50,335 nucleotides of DNA from a virus: the UHGV virus genome UHGV-1998140, one strand, 5' to 3'. Each line of letters begins with the position of its first letter. Within the stretch, counting starts at the first letter, position 1. A program made the position numbers and the translations under genes. The notes beneath the pieces were generated by a model that saw only the letters and a list, made by a program, of their open reading frames with translations, had not been told where the DNA came from and did no database searches. This document shows positions 21,111 through 28,755 of the stretch, piece after piece.

Positions 21111-21289
21111 TATTTCTCCCCGCTATTTTTTGCGCTGGCGGATACCGAGCGCGCGATTAAAAAAGACCAAAGCAGACAGAGTATTCCGCCTGTGATAAAC
21201 CCCGCTGCAGGTAATAAAAGCCAGGCTCCGGTAGAAACCAATAAAGCCCCGGCAAGGCCAATAATGAAACTCAGAATTGTGATTAGCAC
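21110..21289 (-). CDS. Small membrane protein (59 aa, 2 predicted TM helices)
   Basis: GTG start at 21289 with GAGGAAG upstream, overlaps terL stop; its TAA overlaps the portal ATG (TAATG); not in ORF track because <60 aa. Confidence 0.45.
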   Translation of the reverse strand: MLITILSFIIGLAGALLVSTGAWLLLPAAGFITGGILCLLWSFLIARSVSASAKNSGEK

Positions 21290-23004
21290 GCTACGTCTTC
21301 CTCATCATAGATAGATTTGATGACTGCGCTGTTCAACATGGCGCGCCCTATCCCCATCATTAAACCAACCGCACCATCAATCTTGTTTTGTTTCCCCTCC
21401 TTTGTCGGACGGACAATATCGTCGCTGCCCGGCAAATACCGACCTACAACGTTCTGGATGCACCAGTTCATGATGGGATTTCCGTCATGATGGAATCGCC
21501 CCGACGCCAGTGCAGCTTCAATCTCTCTCATGGGGTCGCTCATATGGGTGAAGTTCTGTCTGATTTCGACGGGTTCCAGTCCCTCTTCCTCAAGCAGATG
21601 GCGCAAGGAAGTGGCACCATAAGGATCGATAGGACACTGGGCGATTTTCACGTTCTGACGTAACTGCAGGATGGATTCGAAAATCAGCCGATAATCTACT
21701 TCTGCGCCCTCAGTTGGAATTAAAACGCCCTGTCCCACAAAGGACTGATAACGTTCAGAGGTATGCTTAAGCTTCGGGTCGACAGAATAGATGGTGTCTT
21801 CAGGCACCCAGAACATAGGGCCTACGCAGTAGAAATGGGTAATACCTTCTATATCGCGACGAAAAACAGGAATAACGGCGTTAAGATCGACCTTTGACGC
21901 TAGATCTATTCCCAGCCAGCATTCCTCATCGGCAAAATCAGACAATTTCAGACTCTTGTCAGCAGCAGCCATCCATTTCTGTAAATCGTAAAAGACTGTT
22001 TTTGCGCTAACCCAACGATTAAAATGCTTGGTCAGGATCTTGTTGGTCTGACTGGGGTTCGATATCGCCAGTAACTGTTTTGCGCGAAGAAAGTGCTCTT
22101 TTACCGATATCCCATAATTGGGATTGGCTTTAATGAGCGCTTCCGGCTGAGTCCAGTCATCATCATCATCCAGACCATAGATGATGCCGAAAATGCCCTC
22201 ATTCTCTTCCCCATTGCGGGTTTTGCGCAGGATCTCCACCACCTGTTCCCGCTTCTCATAGCACGGCGATGTAATGTCATAACCGGCTGTCGTGATGATG
22301 AGCGTAATGGGTTGCTCGCGAGCCCCCATCCCTGTCGTCATCGTGGTATACAGGGCATCGGTAATATGTTCGTGGTATTCGTCGATAATGGCGCATGACG
22401 GCGAATCACCGTCACCGGGATCGCCAATCACGGGTGCAAATATGGAGCCATCCGGGCGAGTCATTTTTTTTGCCCAGGGCTTTATAGAAAATTTCTGCCG
22501 CAATGCGGGCAGCTTTTTCACCATCAACAACGCCGGAGCAAACACTTTCCAGGCCTGCTTTTCGGTCGTGGCGCCGCAGTACACTTCCGCACCATGTTCA
22601 CCGTCAGCGCAGAACATATAATTGCCAACGGCAGCGGCAATTGCTGATTTGCCGTTCTTTCTAGGAACTTCGATATAGATCTCAGTGAACCGCCGCAGGC
22701 CACTTTTTTTATTTACCCAGCCAAACGGAACACCCAGGGCAAACTTTTGCCAGGGTTCAAATTCTATCCTGAGTTTTCGGCGGGCCCATTCCCCTGCGGT
22801 ATGTGGCATTTTTTGTGCAAAACGAAGAAATCGCTCTGCCTTATTTTTATCGAACCGGTAAGGCCAGTTCGGATCCTTCGCGCGTTCCAGGTCATCAAGA
22901 TGTCGCTTGCAGGCAAGAATAGTTAACTGACATGCCAGAATCTTCCCGCCAACGATATCCCGTGCATACTGGTTCGCCGCATTGACGTTCGGATATGTGG
23001 CCAT
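21283..23004 (-). CDS. Terminase large subunit
   Basis: 573 aa, Walker A-like PRKNGKS, start overlaps small-subunit stop. Confidence 0.9.
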   Translation of the reverse strand: MATYPNVNAANQYARDIVGGKILACQLTILACKRHLDDLERAKDPNWPYRFDKNKAERFLRFAQKMPHTAGEWARRKLRIEFEPWQKFALGVPFGWVNKKSGLRRFTEIYIEVPRKNGKSAIAAAVGNYMFCADGEHGAEVYCGATTEKQAWKVFAPALLMVKKLPALRQKFSIKPWAKKMTRPDGSIFAPVIGDPGDGDSPSCAIIDEYHEHITDALYTTMTTGMGAREQPITLIITTAGYDITSPCYEKREQVVEILRKTRNGEENEGIFGIIYGLDDDDDWTQPEALIKANPNYGISVKEHFLRAKQLLAISNPSQTNKILTKHFNRWVSAKTVFYDLQKWMAAADKSLKLSDFADEECWLGIDLASKVDLNAVIPVFRRDIEGITHFYCVGPMFWVPEDTIYSVDPKLKHTSERYQSFVGQGVLIPTEGAEVDYRLIFESILQLRQNVKIAQCPIDPYGATSLRHLLEEEGLEPVEIRQNFTHMSDPMREIEAALASGRFHHDGNPIMNWCIQNVVGRYLPGSDDIVRPTKEGKQNKIDGAVGLMMGIGRAMLNSAVIKSIYDEEDVAC

Positions 23005-23438
23005 CAGTCAAACTCATCAAATTCATTCCCGTCATCGTCCTGATCATTTTTGCCGCTGGTCATTCGGATACGGCTGAGCGGATCTAACCCCAGTAGCGAG
23101 CCCAGACGGGCTATCTGGGAAACAGAGTCATTTCTGACGTTTACGGCAGGATGTTTTTTTAACCCTCCCATTTCGCTTTCAGTTGTCAGCCCGTTAGCCA
23201 GTAATTTTTCGGCTTCGAGCATCAGATGGAAGGCGTTGCAGTAAGCCAGAAGTAAAGGGGCATCTTCAAGCTCAAAAACGCCTCTTTCGATCAGGATTTT
23301 ACTTTGAGTCTTCCATATTCTTATAGCCGCCTCCCCCATCAACTCAGCCGGGGGCGCGATTCGGGTCAGTTTACTTTTTTGCCCGGTGGGTAAAACGGGT
23401 TTTCTTCCCCCTCCAGACGATCTAATACCAGCAGCCAT
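23004..23438 (-). CDS. Terminase small subunit (P27-like)
   Basis: 144 aa with acidic C-terminal tail, strong RBS, immediately upstream of terL. Confidence 0.7.
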   Translation of the reverse strand: MAAGIRSSGGGRKPVLPTGQKSKLTRIAPPAELMGEAAIRIWKTQSKILIERGVFELEDAPLLLAYCNAFHLMLEAEKLLANGLTTESEMGGLKKHPAVNVRNDSVSQIARLGSLLGLDPLSRIRMTSGKNDQDDDGNEFDEFD

Positions 23439-24249: not shown

Positions 24250-24546
24250 TTAATGGCTCCGGTTACGGTTGCGATTTTTATTGCGGTTACGCTGATGGCG
24301 CGGTGCGGTTTCGGCTGGCAGGTGCTCGCCTTCGAACGCTTGCGCTGGCTCTTGCGGTTGCGGTTGCGGTTGAGCGGGAACCAGTCCCTCGGGAATTTCA
24401 CCACCTACCTCAAACTTGAGATGCGGTTCTTTCCCCAAGAAATGGCTGAAGTTCAGGCCCGATAGTCCTGCATTGAGCATCGAGATCCCCTCGACATCAA
24501 CGGTAACGAGTTGGCCATCAACGTATTCAATTTTTAAATTCTTCAT
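24250..24546 (-). CDS. Hypothetical protein with PQ repeat and basic C-terminal tail
   Basis: ATG at 24546 overlaps HNH stop (ATGA); contains (GCGGTT)3 hexamer repeat encoding PQPQPQ and a C-terminal RNRNKNRNRNR tail. Confidence 0.5.
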   Translation of the reverse strand: MKNLKIEYVDGQLVTVDVEGISMLNAGLSGLNFSHFLGKEPHLKFEVGGEIPEGLVPAQPQPQPQEPAQAFEGEHLPAETAPRHQRNRNKNRNRNRSH

Positions 24547-24905
24547 CGTGTTCTCTCTGTTGCGGTTTTCGTTCTGTGGCACGGCCAGCACAACGATTCC
24601 AGATTGTAATTGTCATCAGTACCGCCGTGGGCTTTAGGAATGATGTGGTCGACGCTGGTAGCTTTTGTGGCGATACCGTGGCGTCGGCAGTTCTGGCAAA
24701 GGTATTTGTCGCGCACGAGTATCTGGGCACGAATGATTTCCCAGGAACGACCGTATCCGCGTTGCTGTCGGGTTTTTCCGGTCTGATAGTTACGCCAGCC
24801 ATCGCCAGTGTGTTGCTGCCGATGGATCTCGCAGTATCTAGTGGCGTCATTCGTCACTGCCGCGCATCCTCTGTGCCGGCAAGGTCGTTTAGCTCGTGGT
24901 GGCAT
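24543..24905 (-). CDS. HNH endonuclease (terminase-associated, HK97 gp74-like position)
   Basis: Cys/His HNH core (DHIIPKAHGG ... CWPCH); start placed at ATG 24905 (MPPRAKRPC) with GAGGA upstream. Confidence 0.8.
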   Translation of the reverse strand: MPPRAKRPCRHRGCAAVTNDATRYCEIHRQQHTGDGWRNYQTGKTRQQRGYGRSWEIIRAQILVRDKYLCQNCRRHGIATKATSVDHIIPKAHGGTDDNYNLESLCWPCHRTKTATERTR

Positions 24906-25053
24906 ACACATCCTCAAGCATGAATTTGGAGAGAGTAAAAGCGGCACTGTCGATGGGGAACTCTGAAACTGGCAACGATGCGAATGACAAATCGTCATAC
25001 GAAATCACCACCAGCTTCCCTCCTACGTATTCAATTTTTAAGCTCTTCATCAT
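24889..25053 (-). CDS. Small ORF, N-terminal paralog of 24250-24546 product
   Basis: 54 aa MMKSLKIEYVGGKLVV... shares its first ~22 residues with MKNLKIEYVDGQLVTV...; weak RBS. Confidence 0.35.
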   Translation of the reverse strand: MMKSLKIEYVGGKLVVISYDDLSFASLPVSEFPIDSAAFTLSKFMLEDVYATTS

Positions 25054-25224: not shown

Positions 25225-25425
25225 ATGATTAAAAAGAATATGCACCTTCAAATGGAATCAAATGCCCAAACAATCGACGAATTGAACAAAGAAATTGGGC
25301 AACTGAAATGTGTCGTTGGTTTCTTAATGACTCAATTACCACCGCAATCTAGGCAGGCTGTCATCAATAATCTTGAGGAGTTTGGACTTGATGAGTCAGT
25401 TAAGGAATTTACTCAGTTCCTTTGA
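25225..25425 (+). CDS. Hypothetical small protein
   Basis: 66 aa, AAGGAA RBS 6 nt upstream of ATG, low-GC region. Confidence 0.45.
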   Translation: MIKKNMHLQMESNAQTIDELNKEIGQLKCVVGFLMTQLPPQSRQAVINNLEEFGLDESVKEFTQFL

Positions 25426-25809
25426 ACAAGGCTTGACCTAATAAATTAATGTACCAGCCTTGAGAATTTTTGGGTTGTGTCCCAGGCGAAGTAGTGGACT
25501 CGCTTCCTTCGCCTGAAACATTTTTTGGGTTTGAAGTTTTGACGTTCAACGTTTTCAAGTTATTCCTCCTTATTACGATCCCCGCTAAGTGATACAGACA
25601 GATTTATCCCTTGGTAGGGATAGATGTTCTCACCGATTCGTAAATCCGCTCACAGGTCATTCCTGCTTTGTAGCGTTCGTCTGCAATTGCAGCATACGCC
25701 ACGGGGATTAACTACTTATGTCTAACAATCGACAGTCTCATTGTTACAGCCATTAAAAAAACCACCCATGTGGAGTGCCCCCCGAAATGTGGCCTATCTG
25801 ATCGCTATG

Positions 25810-25941
25810 AAAAAGGCCGCAAAAGAGATGCGGCCTTTTGTCATGCACAGTTATCGATTAAATAAACTCTCAGGAGCCATCCGGGAGAGCATCACTTAAA
25901 CGGGTAACTGACCTCCGACAGACTGGTGTTGGGACGGAGGT
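25810..25941 (-). repeat. Structured element copy A (terminator hairpin + conserved box + second hairpin)
   Basis: GGCCGCA/TGCGGCC hairpin with flanking A/T tracts, box CTCTCAGGAGCCATCCGGGAGAG, hairpin ACCTCCG/CGGAGGT with GGTGTTG in loop. Confidence 0.45.
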
Positions 25942-26283
25942 GCAATGAGAGTAGTGTGTTTCATTTTTTTTCATACCAGCAAACACAAAATAATGGCAGT
26001 TCTTCCTGTTAATCGATAACTGCTATTCAATTAGTCTGGCCAGACGGATGATTATCCTGCCAGGAGTTATCACACTCACACAATGAAAATCTTTAAAAAA
26101 AATCCTTAGCCGGTTCACTCGCCTTCGAACAGGTGCAATGACCTTGCTCTGACGAAATTAGCTTTAATCGTTCGTTGCCATCTTCCGTACAAACAAAATA
26201 GTCACAAAAAAATAAAGGTTAAAAAGTGAGCTATTTACTGTCCTGTGGTGTATGGTTAGCAATCACTCACGAGGATAAAAACC

Positions 26284-26454
26284 ATGGCGATGCTCAAAGA
26301 CAAGATACGTACACTCAGACCTGTAAAAAGCACCTGTCCTCACTGCTCTCGCCAGTCAACACATAGCCTGTCGAGAATAAAAAACGATATAACATTGATC
26401 TGCCCATACTGCGGAAATATTTTCCTCCCCTCAGAAAGTAAACCTGTTAAGTAA
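26284..26454 (+). CDS. Small zinc-ribbon protein (56 aa)
   Basis: ATG with GAGGA 8 nt upstream; two CxxC pairs (CPHC ... CPYC); not in ORF track because <60 aa. Confidence 0.5.
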   Translation: MAMLKDKIRTLRPVKSTCPHCSRQSTHSLSRIKNDITLICPYCGNIFLPSESKPVK

Positions 26455-26697
26455 CTGATCGAATACTTTACTGAAGCTGAAGTCCACTCTCAGGCTTCAG
26501 TAAACGAAACGACTTAGCAATCAGCGTCAGGACGCGCTACAGCCTGTATCCAGCAGACCGCAAAAATAACGGCTCACTCCTTTCAGGCGATTCATTCGCT
26601 CAAAATCACCAGGAGTTAACATGCTTCTTCTCCTGCTTCTGATAATCAAAAAACCGCAAATGCGAGGTTTATTTGGTAAATATTGGTTTACCTGAAC

Positions 26698-26967
26698 CTA
26701 GGAATAATAGGCTGCGAAATGCTCCTCAACCTGCGCCCTTGTGTCTGCGCTCTCGTTTAATGTCAATGAGTCATAACCCTTAATGTGAAAAACAGGTTCA
26801 TATGCATAAACAGTAATCAATGCGTAAATTGCATTGTCAGTACCAGAAAAAATCTCATATTTCACACGCGACAGGCGCTTATGTTCATTAACTAACATGT
26901 ATGTTTCGATAAGCTTATGAGTAACCACGTTTTTTCCTTCATGACAAAAAAATCCCCTTTTAACCAT
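26698..26967 (-). CDS. Hypothetical protein
   Basis: 89-aa ORF in low-GC island; no convincing RBS. Confidence 0.35.
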   Translation of the reverse strand: MVKRGFFCHEGKNVVTHKLIETYMLVNEHKRLSRVKYEIFSGTDNAIYALITVYAYEPVFHIKGYDSLTLNESADTRAQVEEHFAAYYS

Positions 26968-27110
26968 ACGCGTTAGGAGCTAAGAATTGAAATTATTAGC
27001 ATTATCGAAGCCACTCGGCAGAATGGTCTCTGTGATGCATTTGCATTTGCATTTATCTTTGCCATGCGTACAAGCAAAATGGTGGCCTTACGGATGCCTG
27101 TTACGCACAA

Positions 27111-27241
27111 TAAAAAAGGCCGCAAAAAAATGCGACCTTTGGTTAGTACCAGTTAGAAAACTAAAATCTCTCAGGAGCCACCCGGGAGAGGCTTTTCTGT
27201 TTTTTAACTGACCACTGCCGTTTCGGTGTTGACTGGCAGTG
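27111..27241 (-). repeat. Structured element copy B (paralog of copy A)
   Basis: Same architecture as copy A; second hairpin stem changed to CACTGCC/GGCAGTG with GGTGTTG kept in loop; first hairpin has C-A mismatch on plus strand that is G-U on minus strand. Confidence 0.45.
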
Positions 27242-27412
27242 ATAACGTGATGATAGCTTCATTTAAGTTATCGATATCATTTAAATATCTAAAGAACTAT
27301 TTAAACCAATAATTCTCAACTCGCCGGAACATTCAACCATAGAAACAGGTTTCTATGCTGGTCTTTTGATGGTAAGCATCAATTCACCACAACCAGCTTA
27401 GTTGCTAATAAA

Positions 27413-27625
27413 TTATTCGGGGGTACCTTCAACGTTGAACCATAGATCTAAATGTTTAATGTAGCGCTGGATGGACACACAAATAACCACTCCATCTTTA
27501 AGGTTAACAGACTTAATAACACATCCTTTCGGTGCAAAATACTCCCCATCATAATGGGGGCGAATGGAATGCTCGTCTCCGTAACGATAACCGTGCGGAA
27601 GTTGAGGGAGTGAATTTCTTGTCAT
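27413..27625 (-). CDS. Hypothetical protein
   Basis: 70-aa ORF downstream of lysis cassette, weak RBS. Confidence 0.4.
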   Translation of the reverse strand: MTRNSLPQLPHGYRYGDEHSIRPHYDGEYFAPKGCVIKSVNLKDGVVICVSIQRYIKHLDLWFNVEGTPE

Positions 27626-27792
27626 GGGCAGCTTCTTAGATAAAAGGAATTTGAAAATCCATAGTGCATTAGCAACCTTGACTTAGATACCAACTTTTCA
27701 TTGTTTACTGCTCTAATATCTCGTTTTCAGATTTTTTGTTCATACGATGATTTAAATATCAATACCTTAAGCGTGCGACATTTATATCTGAT

Positions 27793-28023
27793 TTATCTTG
27801 CTCCCTTCTCTGTAAGCTGCGGGCAGTTGGCCTGCACGGATTTGTTGTACGCCAAGATGTCGCGCTTCGTCTGCTTATCCAGCACGTCAATATCGCGGTC
27901 AGTGAGATAGATAATTTTCGCCCACAGGCACCCTGTATCAACGACCACCGGGGCGGGTGAATTGCTCGCGCAGCTCACGATCAACATCGTCATCAGGCAT
28001 ATGGCTAACAGTCTGCTGTACAT
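27793..28023 (-). CDS. o-spanin (Rz1-like outer-membrane lipoprotein)
   Basis: Start at internal ATG (MYSRLLAICLMTMLIVSCAS) giving a lipoprotein signal with lipobox Cys; overlaps the i-spanin gene out of frame. Confidence 0.6.
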   Translation of the reverse strand: MYSRLLAICLMTMLIVSCASNSPAPVVVDTGCLWAKIIYLTDRDIDVLDKQTKRDILAYNKSVQANCPQLTEKGAR

Positions 28024-28216
28024 CACTGGCCTCCCTGGTGGCTTCCTCTTTCCGTTCTGCCGCAGCGACTCTGGCGGCGGCATCCTCTTCTGTACGTTTC
28101 TTCTCAGATTCCGCTACGGCTTTTTCACGACCGCTCATTCTGCCCAAACCAAATACACCCATGAGCAGAAGAACTGCCGCAGTGAGAAATGCCAGAATGG
28201 CTTTAATTTGCGTCAT
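27938..28216 (-). CDS. i-spanin (Rz-like)
   Basis: 92 aa, N-terminal TM helix then charged coiled-coil; directly downstream of endolysin. Confidence 0.6.
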   Translation of the reverse strand: MTQIKAILAFLTAAVLLLMGVFGLGRMSGREKAVAESEKKRTEEDAAARVAAAERKEEATREASDVQQTVSHMPDDDVDRELREQFTRPGGR

Positions 28217-28755
28217 AGCTTCACTCGCTCTTTCACCCAGCCATAAACGAACGACTCATTAGCCGAGCGCTGTTCAGCCAGTTCAAGATACCTTTGGCCC
28301 TGGCTGCAATTGAGAGCGCGCAGCAGCACTTCTTCACCTTCCTTACCCCGGGTATTCAGATAGGATTTCAAAGCATTGATGCTACGGGGTCCAATCTGCC
28401 CGTCAGCAATAAGATCTGGATAAAGTTTCTGTTGATTGTTGAAAACGTTCAGCCAGCGCTGGAACCATTTCACCTGAACAGATGGCCCCATATTTACGCC
28501 TGTATCGCACAACTCTGCCGCAATTGATGGAGAAACTGTCGCAACCAGGTCAAAGCGCGGCCCATACCAGTAATCGGCTGAAAGGATATCCAGAGCCTGC
28601 TGACGAGTCAGATCACGCATATCGCCTGAATAACCATGGGCACGGGCAACGGCCTGAGTAATCCCCCAGTTAGTTGGACCACCCTTGTCGTTTGGATTGT
28701 TAACATAGCCACCCTCTTTACCGAGGATGCTGTTGAAAATATCTTCTTTAGTCAT
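28213..28755 (-). CDS. Endolysin (GH108-like muramidase with peptidoglycan-binding region)
   Basis: 180 aa, N-terminus ILGKEGGYVNNPNDKGGPTNWGIT typical of GH108 lysozymes; flanked by holin and spanin genes. Confidence 0.75.
   Translation of the reverse strand: MTKEDIFNSILGKEGGYVNNPNDKGGPTNWGITQAVARAHGYSGDMRDLTRQQALDILSADYWYGPRFDLVATVSPSIAAELCDTGVNMGPSVQVKWFQRWLNVFNNQQKLYPDLIADGQIGPRSINALKSYLNTRGKEGEEVLLRALNCSQGQRYLELAEQRSANESFVYGWVKERVKL

What the first reader, a model, noticed from the sequence alone, without database searches (positions are those of the whole stretch)
25810..27241. Two paralogous structured elements with compensatory stem changes (candidate sRNA/regulatory RNA)
Copies at 25810-25941 and 27111-27241 share the same architecture: a GC hairpin with U-tract, a conserved 23-nt box CTCTCAGGAGCCAYCCGGGAGAG, and a second hairpin whose stem differs between copies (ACCTCCG/CGGAGGT vs CACTGCC/GGCAGTG) while the loop motif GGTGTTG is kept. 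Small ORFs through the copies are not frame-conserved, and a C-A mismatch in copy B is a G-U pair only on the minus strand. Structure-preserving covariation points to a functional RNA transcribed on the minus strand.
Basis: seen in the sequence. Interest (0 to 1): 0.7.

Follow-up and report, generated by a model that had tools for sequence, protein, structure and literature searches.

The report
New structured RNA in Klebsiella prophages
The two repeats are copies of an undescribed, roughly 140-base folded RNA found in Klebsiella prophages, always between the lysis and DNA-packaging genes; it is probably a small regulatory RNA, but its target and expression are unknown.

Summary
Both copies (covariance-model limits 25802-25943 and 27105-27245, minus strand) share one architecture. 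It consists of hairpin P1 with an invariant CCAACACC loop, and a long hairpin P2 closed by CAGUUA/UAACUG whose tip is the 23-nt box. The box is a CUCUC/GAGAG stem with an invariant UGGCUCCU loop. An intrinsic terminator follows.

More than 200 further copies were found, in at least five sequence types plus chimeras. They occur in Klebsiella prophages, plasmids and gut metagenomes, in Salmonella phage SEN34, and in 1 of 5426 E. coli genomes.

The stems differ between types but stay paired: 93.5% of cells are paired against 39-50% in slid controls, and 22 of 39 pairs changed on both sides. Non-Watson-Crick pairing is 164 G-U against 11 A-C, which places the RNA on the minus (late-gene) strand.

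Every copy lies between the lysis cassette and the packaging genes, in late-gene orientation, at the edges of small cargo cassettes. Chimeric copies mark cassette loss by recombination at the box.

There is no Rfam match, no conserved ORF, no clear sigma-70 promoter and no target. My best reading is a prophage small RNA or shared 3'-UTR module that acts through its loops. It is a new member of a known kind, of moderate interest.

The parts
25802..25943 (-). Copy A (sequence type 1): the whole P1-P2-terminator element
   Evidence: Covariance model R1 scores it 135.9 bits, E = 1e-29. The minus-strand fold has z = -7.0.
25911..25941 (-). Copy A hairpin P1: stem ACCUCCG/CGGAGGU with a loop that contains CCAACACC
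   Evidence: covariation of helix 1.
25848..25910 (-). Copy A long hairpin P2, closed by CAGUUA/UAACUG; its lower stem is compensated relative to copy B
   Evidence: helices 2 and 3.
25867..25889 (-). Copy A box, the tip of P2: CUCUC/GAGAG stem with loop CCGGAUGGCUCCU
   Evidence: The box is 98% identical between types, against 63% for the lower stem of P2.
25810..25839 (-). Copy A intrinsic terminator: AAAAGGCCGCA-loop-UGCGGCCUUUUU
   Evidence: helix 4 is 99.6% paired.
27105..27245 (-). Copy B (sequence type 2): the whole P1-P2-terminator element
   Evidence: R1 scores it 154 bits, E = 1e-33. The fold has z = -4.1.
27211..27243 (-). Copy B hairpin P1: stem AUCACUGCC/GGCAGUGGU with loop AGUCAACACCGAAAC
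27150..27210 (-). Copy B long hairpin P2
27168..27190 (-). Copy B box, the tip of P2: loop CCGGGUGGCUCCU
27112..27140 (-). Copy B intrinsic terminator. It contains a U-G pair that would be a C-A mismatch on the + strand, and is followed by six U
   Evidence: The terminator scan finds it on the minus strand at 27140..27115.
27413..27625 (-). 70-aa ORF (phrog_7679, found only in Klebsiella) that always lies about 165 nt upstream of type 2 and type 4 copies; possibly the mRNA whose 3' UTR is copy B
26698..26967 (-). Cargo ORF (phrog_38275) between the two copies
26284..26454 (+). ynfU-family zinc-ribbon gene (PF23499). It points away from copy A and accompanies most, but not all, type 1 copies
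25944..26075 (-). Roughly 130-nt stretch upstream of copy A that stays conserved in type 1 copies whatever lies further upstream. It includes CAGUUAUCGAUUAA (26022-26009), complementary to the 3' arm of P2
   Evidence: I5.

Best explanation
The two repeats are paralogous copies of a prophage-borne non-coding RNA family. The conserved core is about 140 nt and is read from the window's minus strand, the same direction as the late genes. The RNA folds into a 5' hairpin (P1), a long bulged hairpin (P2) and an intrinsic terminator that forms its 3' end. The sequences presented in the loops are invariant (CCAACACC in P1 and UGGCUCCU at the tip of P2), whereas the stems have drifted with compensation. 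I therefore infer that the loops are the working surfaces. The RNA most likely acts as a small regulatory RNA. It would be made either from a weak or unrecognised promoter of its own, or cut from the 3' end of the small cargo (moron) mRNAs that it terminates. The anti-Shine-Dalgarno-like loop GGCUCCU, complementary to AGGAGCC, would pair with a ribosome-binding site, and the C/A-rich loop would make a second contact or bind a chaperone. As a by-product, the nearly invariant box and terminator act as homology patches at which cargo cassettes between lysis and packaging genes are lost or exchanged. What is shown: structure conservation, strand, family, location, and recombination at the box. What is inferred: transcription, RNA release, loop-mediated pairing, and the target. 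The stated confidence of 0.45 applies to the regulatory small-RNA mechanism. I put the narrower claim, that selection acts on an RNA structure on the minus strand, at about 0.85.
For: The two window copies score 154 and 136 bits with covariance model R1, and nothing else in the window matches. The model finds 122 hits in 100 sources. In these, 93.5% of pair cells are paired against 39-50% in slid controls, 22 of 39 pairs changed on both sides, and 0 of 500 shuffles reach the observed values. There are 164 G-U against 11 A-C cells. Type 3b differs from type 3 in the base of P2 by three changes that all produce G-U pairs. Every type folds on its own into P1-P2-terminator, and so does the diverged Salmonella SEN34 copy, which keeps CCAAUACC and GGUGGCUCCUGAGAG. 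Identity between types is 0.98 in the box and 0.97 in the terminator stem, but 0.63 in the lower stem of P2 and 0.54 in the linker. The terminator works best on the minus strand, with a U-G pair and a 5-6 U tail. In all loci examined the element lies on the late-gene strand between the lysis genes and the packaging genes, whatever the terminase type. Most type 1 copies, including copy A, sit next to a ynfU gene that points the other way, so copy A cannot simply be the 3' UTR of the adjacent gene. No ORF is conserved. Prophage small RNAs next to lysis cassettes are an established kind in E. coli (bioRxiv 10.64898/2026.05.13.724894; PMC4104026).
Against: No sigma-70 promoter is found upstream of either copy, by scan or by eye. 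No complementary target site was found at any translation start in the window. A search of viral contigs for the complement of the P2 loop in front of an ATG gave only same-sense or chance hits. The host genome could not be searched. The CUCUC/GAGAG stem never varies, so it carries no covariation signal, and its invariance could instead reflect a protein site or gene conversion. Chimeric copies with a disrupted middle part of P2 persist in several phages. The alignment used for the pair counts was fitted to the model, and the sequences fall into only about five lineages, so the counts overstate the number of independent events.
Confidence: 0.45

Rival explanations
1. The element is a cis-acting RNA module of the late or moron transcripts. 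The long P2 helix (about 22-25 bp with bulges) would be a processing site, for example for RNase III. P1 and the terminator hairpin would protect the upstream mRNA from 3' exonucleases. The module would then separate and stabilise the lysis and cargo mRNAs, and would stop transcription in the lysogen that has not been modified by the antiterminator Q. It would have no trans target.
For: The element lies about 150-165 nt downstream of an ORF on the same strand in most contexts, and always inside the late operon. No promoter of its own is found. The helix is long and nearly perfect in type 3. The terminator is constitutive: I saw no alternative antiterminator pairing with its 5' arm. RNase III sites between genes of phage T7 are a precedent (own knowledge).
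Against: Two loops are invariant in sequence across types while the stems drift. That is not expected for a purely structural processing or stability signal. Most type 1 copies, including copy A, follow a gene that points the other way. Chimeras that lack the middle of P2 persist.
Confidence: 0.3
2. The element is a DNA-level module boundary. The conserved blocks would persist because they are terminators plus homology patches for recombination between mosaic lambdoid phages, and the hairpins would have no RNA function beyond termination.
For: Copies flank cargo cassettes. In L008 the order is type 2, DUF2560, 63-aa membrane ORF, type 3b. Single-copy phages such as L002 carry a chimera made of the 5' half of type 2 and the 3' half of type 3b, with the cassette missing. 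Fragments of elements lie upstream of intact copies. The same junction module is joined to different lysis and packaging modules.
Against: Recombination explains conserved blocks but not compensatory change in P1 and in the lower stem of P2. Nor does it explain the 164 to 11 excess of G-U over A-C, which is specific to one strand.
Confidence: 0.12
3. The element is a put-like processive antiterminator RNA. The two adjacent stem-loops in the nascent transcript would bind RNA polymerase and let it read through the terminator that follows and through later ones, as putL and putR do in phage HK022.
For: Two hairpins separated by 0-1 nt lie directly upstream of a terminator, in the late-transcript orientation.
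Against: The window encodes a Q antiterminator (PF06323; 31845-32693), which already accounts for read-through. The element is not placed just downstream of a promoter. Sequence similarity to put could not be tested, and the comparison rests on memory.
Confidence: 0.05
4. The repeats encode small proteins, namely the ORFs at 25870-25986 and 27161-27262 on the minus strand. GenBank records of Klebsiella phages annotate a 42-aa CDS at this position.
For: ORFs exist in both copies, and a CDS is annotated in MK416022.
Against: The conserved loop motif is read in different frames in the two copies. ORF lengths differ (38 and 33 aa listed in the window, and 42 aa annotated in MK416022). The ATG is absent in L011 and L057, and type 3 has only a 7-codon frame. 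The pattern of change is base-pair compensation, not synonymous drift.
Confidence: 0.02

Closest known systems
Prophage-encoded small RNAs of E. coli lambdoid prophages: PasA-D, AgvB, AsxR, STnc100, Esr41, DicF and svsR/co293
   Same: They are short non-coding RNAs carried as cargo by lambdoid prophages, often next to the holin/lysozyme operon. They occur in several copies and variants per genome and spread by recombination (bioRxiv 10.64898/2026.05.13.724894; PMC4104026; PMC12803456).
   Different: There is no sequence or structure match. The Rfam models for AgvB, AsxR, STnc100 and Esr41 give nothing here even at E <= 10. The present family lies downstream of the lysis genes, centres on Klebsiella, and occurs in 1 of 5426 complete E. 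coli genomes. Its expression, chaperone and targets are unknown.
Small RNAs derived from the 3' UTR of an mRNA (the CpxQ, SroC and NarS type; own knowledge and review PMC9438474)
   Same: The element lies about 150 nt downstream of an ORF on the same strand, shares that ORF's intrinsic terminator, and has no obvious promoter of its own.
   Different: The same 3' module follows unrelated genes (phrog_7679, DUF2560, a 63-aa membrane ORF). Most type 1 copies, including copy A, follow a gene that points the other way. Processing has not been shown.
RNase III processing hairpins between genes of phage T7 and the lambda sib site (own knowledge)
   Same: They are long, bulged intergenic hairpins inside a long phage transcript.
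   Different: Here the loop sequences are invariant, a second hairpin is present, and a terminator belongs to the unit. Cleavage was not tested.
Conserved boundary or linker sequences and morons at module junctions of lambdoid phages (own knowledge)
   Same: The element lies at cassette edges. Crossovers fall inside the conserved box, and cassettes are gained and lost between copies.
   Different: Such linkers are defined at the DNA level. These elements show strand-specific base-pair covariation.
HK022 putL/putR antiterminator RNAs (own knowledge)
   Same: Two adjacent stem-loops in a phage transcript lie upstream of terminators.
   Different: The position is different (late region, not just downstream of an early promoter). 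The phage has a Q protein, and no similarity was tested.

Membership tests
Any Rfam 15 family | The covariance-model score reaches the family's gathering threshold | tested here: not met
   The whole window gives 0 hits at gathering thresholds. For 25400-27700 at E <= 10 there are only chance-level hits, the best being 23.7 bits against a gathering score of 85. The hits that overlap the copies are mostly terminator-type partial matches.
AgvB / AsxR / STnc100 / Esr41 (Rfam models) and Pas small RNAs of E. coli prophages (no model available here) | Sequence and structure similarity to the family model, and presence in E. coli or Shigella prophages | tested here: not met
   The Rfam models RF02702, RF02703, RF02076 and RF02676 are part of the scan and gave no hit. 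The Pas RNAs have no Rfam model and their sequences were not compared; they were set aside on host range alone, because they are reported as largely restricted to Escherichia and Shigella, whereas the element occurs in only 1 of 5426 complete E. coli genomes.
Chaperone-dependent base-pairing small RNA (Hfq or ProQ class) | An intrinsic terminator with a U-tail forms the 3' end | tested here: met
   The terminators are GGCCGCA..UGCGGCC + UUUUU (copy A) and GGUCGCA..UGCGGCC + UUUUUU (copy B). The helix is 99.6% paired in the family.
Chaperone-dependent base-pairing small RNA (Hfq or ProQ class) | A conserved single-stranded seed region | tested here: met
   CCAACACC in the P1 loop and UGGCUCCU in the P2 loop are invariant or nearly so, while the stems vary. 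They stay in loops in the minimum-free-energy fold of every intact type.
Chaperone-dependent base-pairing small RNA (Hfq or ProQ class) | Its own promoter, or a defined processing site that gives a discrete RNA | tested here: inconclusive
   No sigma-70 consensus lies upstream on the minus strand. About 25 nt of leader is conserved between types. There are no transcript data.
Chaperone-dependent base-pairing small RNA (Hfq or ProQ class) | A complementary target site, and binding to a chaperone | tested here: inconclusive
   No target was found at any translation start in the window or among viral contigs. The host genome was not available, and chaperone binding cannot be tested here.
RNase III processing site | A helix of about two turns (20 bp or more), and cleavage by RNase III | tested here: inconclusive
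   P2 is predicted to hold about 22-25 bp with bulges. Cleavage cannot be tested here.
Integron attC-like cassette site | Core sites R' (GTTRRRY) and R'' (RYYYAAC), and an integron integrase nearby | tested here: not met
   The bases of P2 read GTTACCC, GTTAAAA or GTTAGCC and GATAAC or TCTAAC, which do not fit the cores. The G-U over A-C asymmetry points to RNA, not single-stranded DNA of either strand. The ORFs around the junction that I annotated include no integrase; the rest of the window was not scanned for one.
Type I toxin-antitoxin antisense RNA | A small hydrophobic toxin ORF overlapped by, or convergent with, the RNA | tested here: not met
   The window has no such ORF at either copy. 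Only type 3 and 3b copies elsewhere are convergent with a 53-aa lipoprotein ORF that shares the terminator.
tRNA or tmRNA | A cloverleaf detected by ARAGORN | tested here: not met
   ARAGORN finds 0 genes in the window.
HK022 put antiterminator RNA | Two stem-loops directly downstream of an early promoter that confer terminator read-through in cis | not testable with these tools
   The two-hairpin layout is present, but the position differs and a Q protein is encoded. No put model was available.

The most novel reading that the evidence does not exclude
The element could be a dual-purpose 'cassette end'. The same structured RNA would be attached as a common 3' module to unrelated cargo genes at the lysis-packaging junction. 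This would place several morons under one post-transcriptional control through its two invariant loops, for example an anti-Shine-Dalgarno loop that silences a host or rival-phage gene. At the same time, its invariant box and terminator would supply the homology that shuffles those cassettes between Klebsiella prophages.
Probability: 0.15. Interest if true: 0.7.

Novelty: new member of a known kind. Interest (0 to 1): 0.5.

Why it matters
Klebsiella pneumoniae is a major hospital pathogen, and its prophages carry poorly understood cargo. This element is a well-supported RNA family with hundreds of copies, several co-varying types and a fixed genomic address. It is absent from Rfam, and GenBank phage records annotate it as a hypothetical protein. 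If it is a regulatory RNA, it adds a prophage-to-host or phage-to-phage control layer in Klebsiella comparable to the Pas and AgvB RNAs of pathogenic E. coli. If it is a cis module, it shows how late and moron transcripts are punctuated. In either case it marks a recombination hotspot where lysogenic-conversion cassettes are exchanged. It also gives annotators a covariance model that avoids false CDS calls.

Tried and rejected
- **Rfam:** scans at gathering thresholds and at E <= 10 gave nothing.
- **tRNA/tmRNA:** the ARAGORN scan found none.
- **Promoters:** the sigma-70 scan, plus inspection by eye of all types upstream of P1, found no consistent -35/-10 pair.
- **Small-protein reading:** rejected, because frames differ and the start codon is not conserved.
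- **Targets in the window:** exact-word and RNAduplex scans with both loops gave only the antisense of the elements themselves plus chance-level hits. Two notable hits (TerL and ynfU) are in the same sense as the RNA, so they are not targets.
- **Targets in viral contigs:** I searched for the complement of the P2 loop followed by ATG. Of 120 hits, 63 are one homologous site, but it lies on the other strand: a major-tail-gene stop plus the next gene's Shine-Dalgarno sequence, reading UCUGGCUCCUGAGAGG. This is again same-sense.
- **Attenuator or riboswitch reading:** no pairing competes with the 5' arm of the terminator. The upstream CAGUUAUCGAUUAA that can replace the 5' arm of P2 exists in type 1 only and looks like a relic of an element fragment.
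- **Integron attC reading:** the core motifs are absent.
- **Partner protein:** the AlphaFold model of the always-adjacent 70-aa ORF was too poor to search with (pLDDT 59.8).
- **Literature:** a search for the sequence returned only unrelated primer matches. The Klebsiella RIL-seq paper and its supplements do not mention the element.
- **E. coli ynfU neighbourhood:** too diverged to compare.

Full report
**Setting.** The window holds a lambdoid-type prophage whose late genes run on the minus strand. In transcription order they are:

- Q antiterminator (31845-32693)
- an N6/N4 DNA methylase (30233-31309)
- two holins (29023-29412 and 28755-29033)
- endolysin (28213-28755)
- Rz and Rz1 spanins (27938-28216 and 27793-28083)
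- an HNH endonuclease (24543-24998)
- P27-type small terminase (23004-23438)
- large terminase (21283-23004)

The finding lies in the 2.8-kb junction between the spanins and the HNH gene. The closest phage records are temperate Klebsiella phages.

The 23-nt box occurs exactly twice, with none expected by chance. The two copies align over about 135 nt. Read on the minus strand, each copy has four parts in order:

- Hairpin P1. The stems differ (ACCUCCG/CGGAGGU against AUCACUGCC/GGCAGUGGU), but the loop keeps CAACACC.
- A long hairpin P2, directly adjacent to P1 and closed by CAGUUA/UAACUG.
- The tip of P2, which is the box itself: a CUCUC/GAGAG stem with loop CCGGRUGGCUCCU.
- A short linker and a GC-rich terminator with 5-6 U.

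The lower stem of that helix is completely different in the two copies yet paired in both. The folds are much more stable than shuffled sequence, with z = -7.0 and -4.1.

**It is a family.**

- A metagenome scan gave 100 stretches, of which about 84 belong to the family. Most are from human gut samples.
- Klebsiella plasmid records carry the element.
- Five temperate Klebsiella phages and Salmonella phage SEN34 carry it.
- Among 185,579 species-representative genomes, only Klebsiella oxytoca has it; the other eight hits are at the chance rate.
- Only 1 of 5426 complete E. coli genomes has it.

The copies fall into types 1, 2, 3, 3b and 4, a diverged SEN34 type, and chimeras. Copy A is type 1 and copy B is type 2.

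**Structure is conserved while sequence is not.**

- Each type, folded alone, gives P1-P2-terminator.
- I built covariance model R1 from 24 representatives with a hand-set structure. It finds only the two copies in the window, at 154 and 136 bits, and 122 hits in 100 sources.
- On the resulting alignment, 93.5% of pair cells are standard pairs, against 39-50% when partners are slid by 1-3 columns.
- Of 39 pairs, 22 show changes on both sides, and no shuffle out of 500 reaches any observed measure.
- Among types 1-4, identity is 0.98 in the box and 0.97 in the terminator stem. It is 0.63 in the lower stem of P2, 0.54 in the linker and 0.76 in the P1 stem.

Two caveats apply. The alignment is fitted to the model, and there are only about five lineages, so cells are not independent events. 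The independent single-sequence folds and the slid-partner control argue that the signal is nevertheless real.

**The strand is the minus strand.** In 48 distinct sequences the pair cells comprise 1549 Watson-Crick, 164 G-U, 11 A-C and 109 other. G-U pairs become A-C mismatches on the opposite strand, so the helices close only on the window's minus strand. Type 3b differs from type 3 at the base of P2 by three substitutions, and all three yield G-U pairs. The terminators also have better stems and longer U-runs on the minus strand. This rules out a purely double-stranded-DNA explanation for the hairpins.

**The address is fixed.** I ran a tblastn panel over all loci.

- The RNA strand is always the late-gene strand.
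- The element always lies between the lysis genes upstream and the packaging genes downstream, whichever terminase family follows.
- The same holds in SEN34 and in the single E. coli genome.
- Types 2 and 4 always lie about 165 nt after a 70-aa ORF confined to Klebsiella (phrog_7679).
- Most type 1 copies, including copy A, sit next to a ynfU zinc-ribbon gene that points the other way (PF23499). A few, such as L011, follow a 63-aa membrane ORF on the same strand instead.
- Types 3 and 3b follow a DUF2560 gene or a 63-aa membrane ORF. They are convergent with a 53-aa lipoprotein ORF that shares the terminator.

**Recombination occurs at the box.** Phages with two copies 978 bp apart carry type 2, DUF2560, the membrane ORF and type 3b, in that order. 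Single-copy relatives carry a chimera of the type 2 5' half and the type 3b 3' half, and they lack the cassette. This is what a crossover inside the invariant box would produce. The window's own pair brackets the phrog_38275 ORF and ynfU. In other genomes this whole junction module is attached to different lysis and packaging modules. Fragments of elements also lie upstream of intact copies.

**What it is not.**

- It matches no Rfam family, including the models for the E. coli prophage small RNAs AgvB, AsxR, STnc100 and Esr41.
- It is not a tRNA.
- It does not encode a conserved peptide, although GenBank phage records annotate a 42-aa CDS over it.
- It is not an attenuator, because nothing competes with the terminator stem.
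- It does not fit integron attC cores.

The literature I could search describes prophage small RNAs beside lysis cassettes in E. coli: the Pas RNAs, AgvB and AsxR, and svsR. None is described in Klebsiella at this position.

**Mechanism.** The following are shown: a strand-specific, selected RNA fold; two invariant loop sequences; an intrinsic terminator as the 3' end; and a fixed late-operon position at cassette ends.

The rest is inferred. I think the RNA is released as a small RNA of about 140-170 nt, either from an unrecognised promoter or by processing of the cargo mRNA it terminates. It would then act through its loops. UGGCUCCU is complementary to a Shine-Dalgarno-containing AGGAGCCA, and CCAACACC could be a second seed or a chaperone site.

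Several points weigh against this. No sigma-70 promoter is evident. No complementary site lies at a translation start in the window. The only recurrent hits elsewhere are in the same sense as the RNA. The host genome could not be searched.

The main rival is a cis module of the late and moron transcripts that combines processing, stability and termination. It explains the position and the missing promoter, but not the invariant loops, nor the type 1 copies that follow a gene on the opposite strand. A pure recombination-linker model explains the conserved blocks and the chimeras, but not the covariation or the G-U bias.

**Verdict.** The finding is real. It is a new RNA family of a known general kind (prophage-borne structured or regulatory RNA), and it doubles as a recombination hotspot for cargo cassettes. 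Its function and expression remain to be shown.

Noticed in passing
window 29553-29735 (+) and 29792-30205 (+): A HicA toxin / HicB antitoxin pair lies on the strand opposite the late genes, between an N6/N4 DNA methylase downstream of Q (30233-31309) and the holin. It looks like a moron inside the late operon.
   Followed up: partly
window 25578-25700: This stretch is about 85% identical to the 3' end of the Rz-like gp55 gene of Klebsiella phage ST846-OXA48phi9.1. It appears to be a spanin-gene remnant beside the HNH/terminase module, marking a mosaic joint just downstream of copy A.
   Followed up: partly
window 25848-25861 and 26009-26022: A 14-nt perfect inverted repeat is present. An upstream CAGUUAUCGAUUAA can pair with the 3' arm of copy A's P2 in place of the normal 5' arm. 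Other type 1 copies keep the pairing partly through G-U changes. It could be an alternative fold or a relic of an element fragment.
   Followed up: partly
window 26351-26362 (+) and 22443-22455 (-): Two same-sense identities with the invariant loops were found. The ynfU mRNA contains GCCAGUCAACAC, identical to the P1 loop of copy B and present in the ynfU genes of 9 loci. The large-terminase mRNA contains CCCGGAUGGCUCC, identical to the P2 loop of copy A. Neither is complementary, so neither is a target. Chance is likely, but mimicry is not excluded.
   Followed up: partly
L238 5325-5345 and 62 other viral contigs: In an unrelated prophage group, the junction between a major-tail-like gene and the next gene reads UCUGGCUCCUGAGAGG (the stop codon UGA plus a Shine-Dalgarno sequence). 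This is identical to the invariant 3' half of the box and in the same sense.
   Followed up: partly
L001 4202-4330 (MK416022.1 26698-26826): GenBank records of Klebsiella phages annotate a 42-aa hypothetical protein across the element. This is probably a false CDS call.
   Followed up: yes
window 27335-27365 (-): A further hairpin (CAUAGAAA/UUUCUAUG) lies in the 165-nt spacer between the phrog_7679 ORF and copy B. Its stem is changed with compensation in relatives, where it reads CAGAG/CUCUG.
   Followed up: no
window 26284-26454 (+): A ynfU-family zinc-ribbon gene (PF23499, 5.5e-14) points away from copy A and accompanies most type 1 copies. Its function is unknown.
   Followed up: partly
L088 7080-7188 (-): A weak covariance-model hit (31 bits) lies just downstream of a type 2 copy. 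It is a different long hairpin (CCCCACAAAGGGAUAA.../...UUAUCCCUUUGUGGGG) followed by its own terminator.
   Followed up: no
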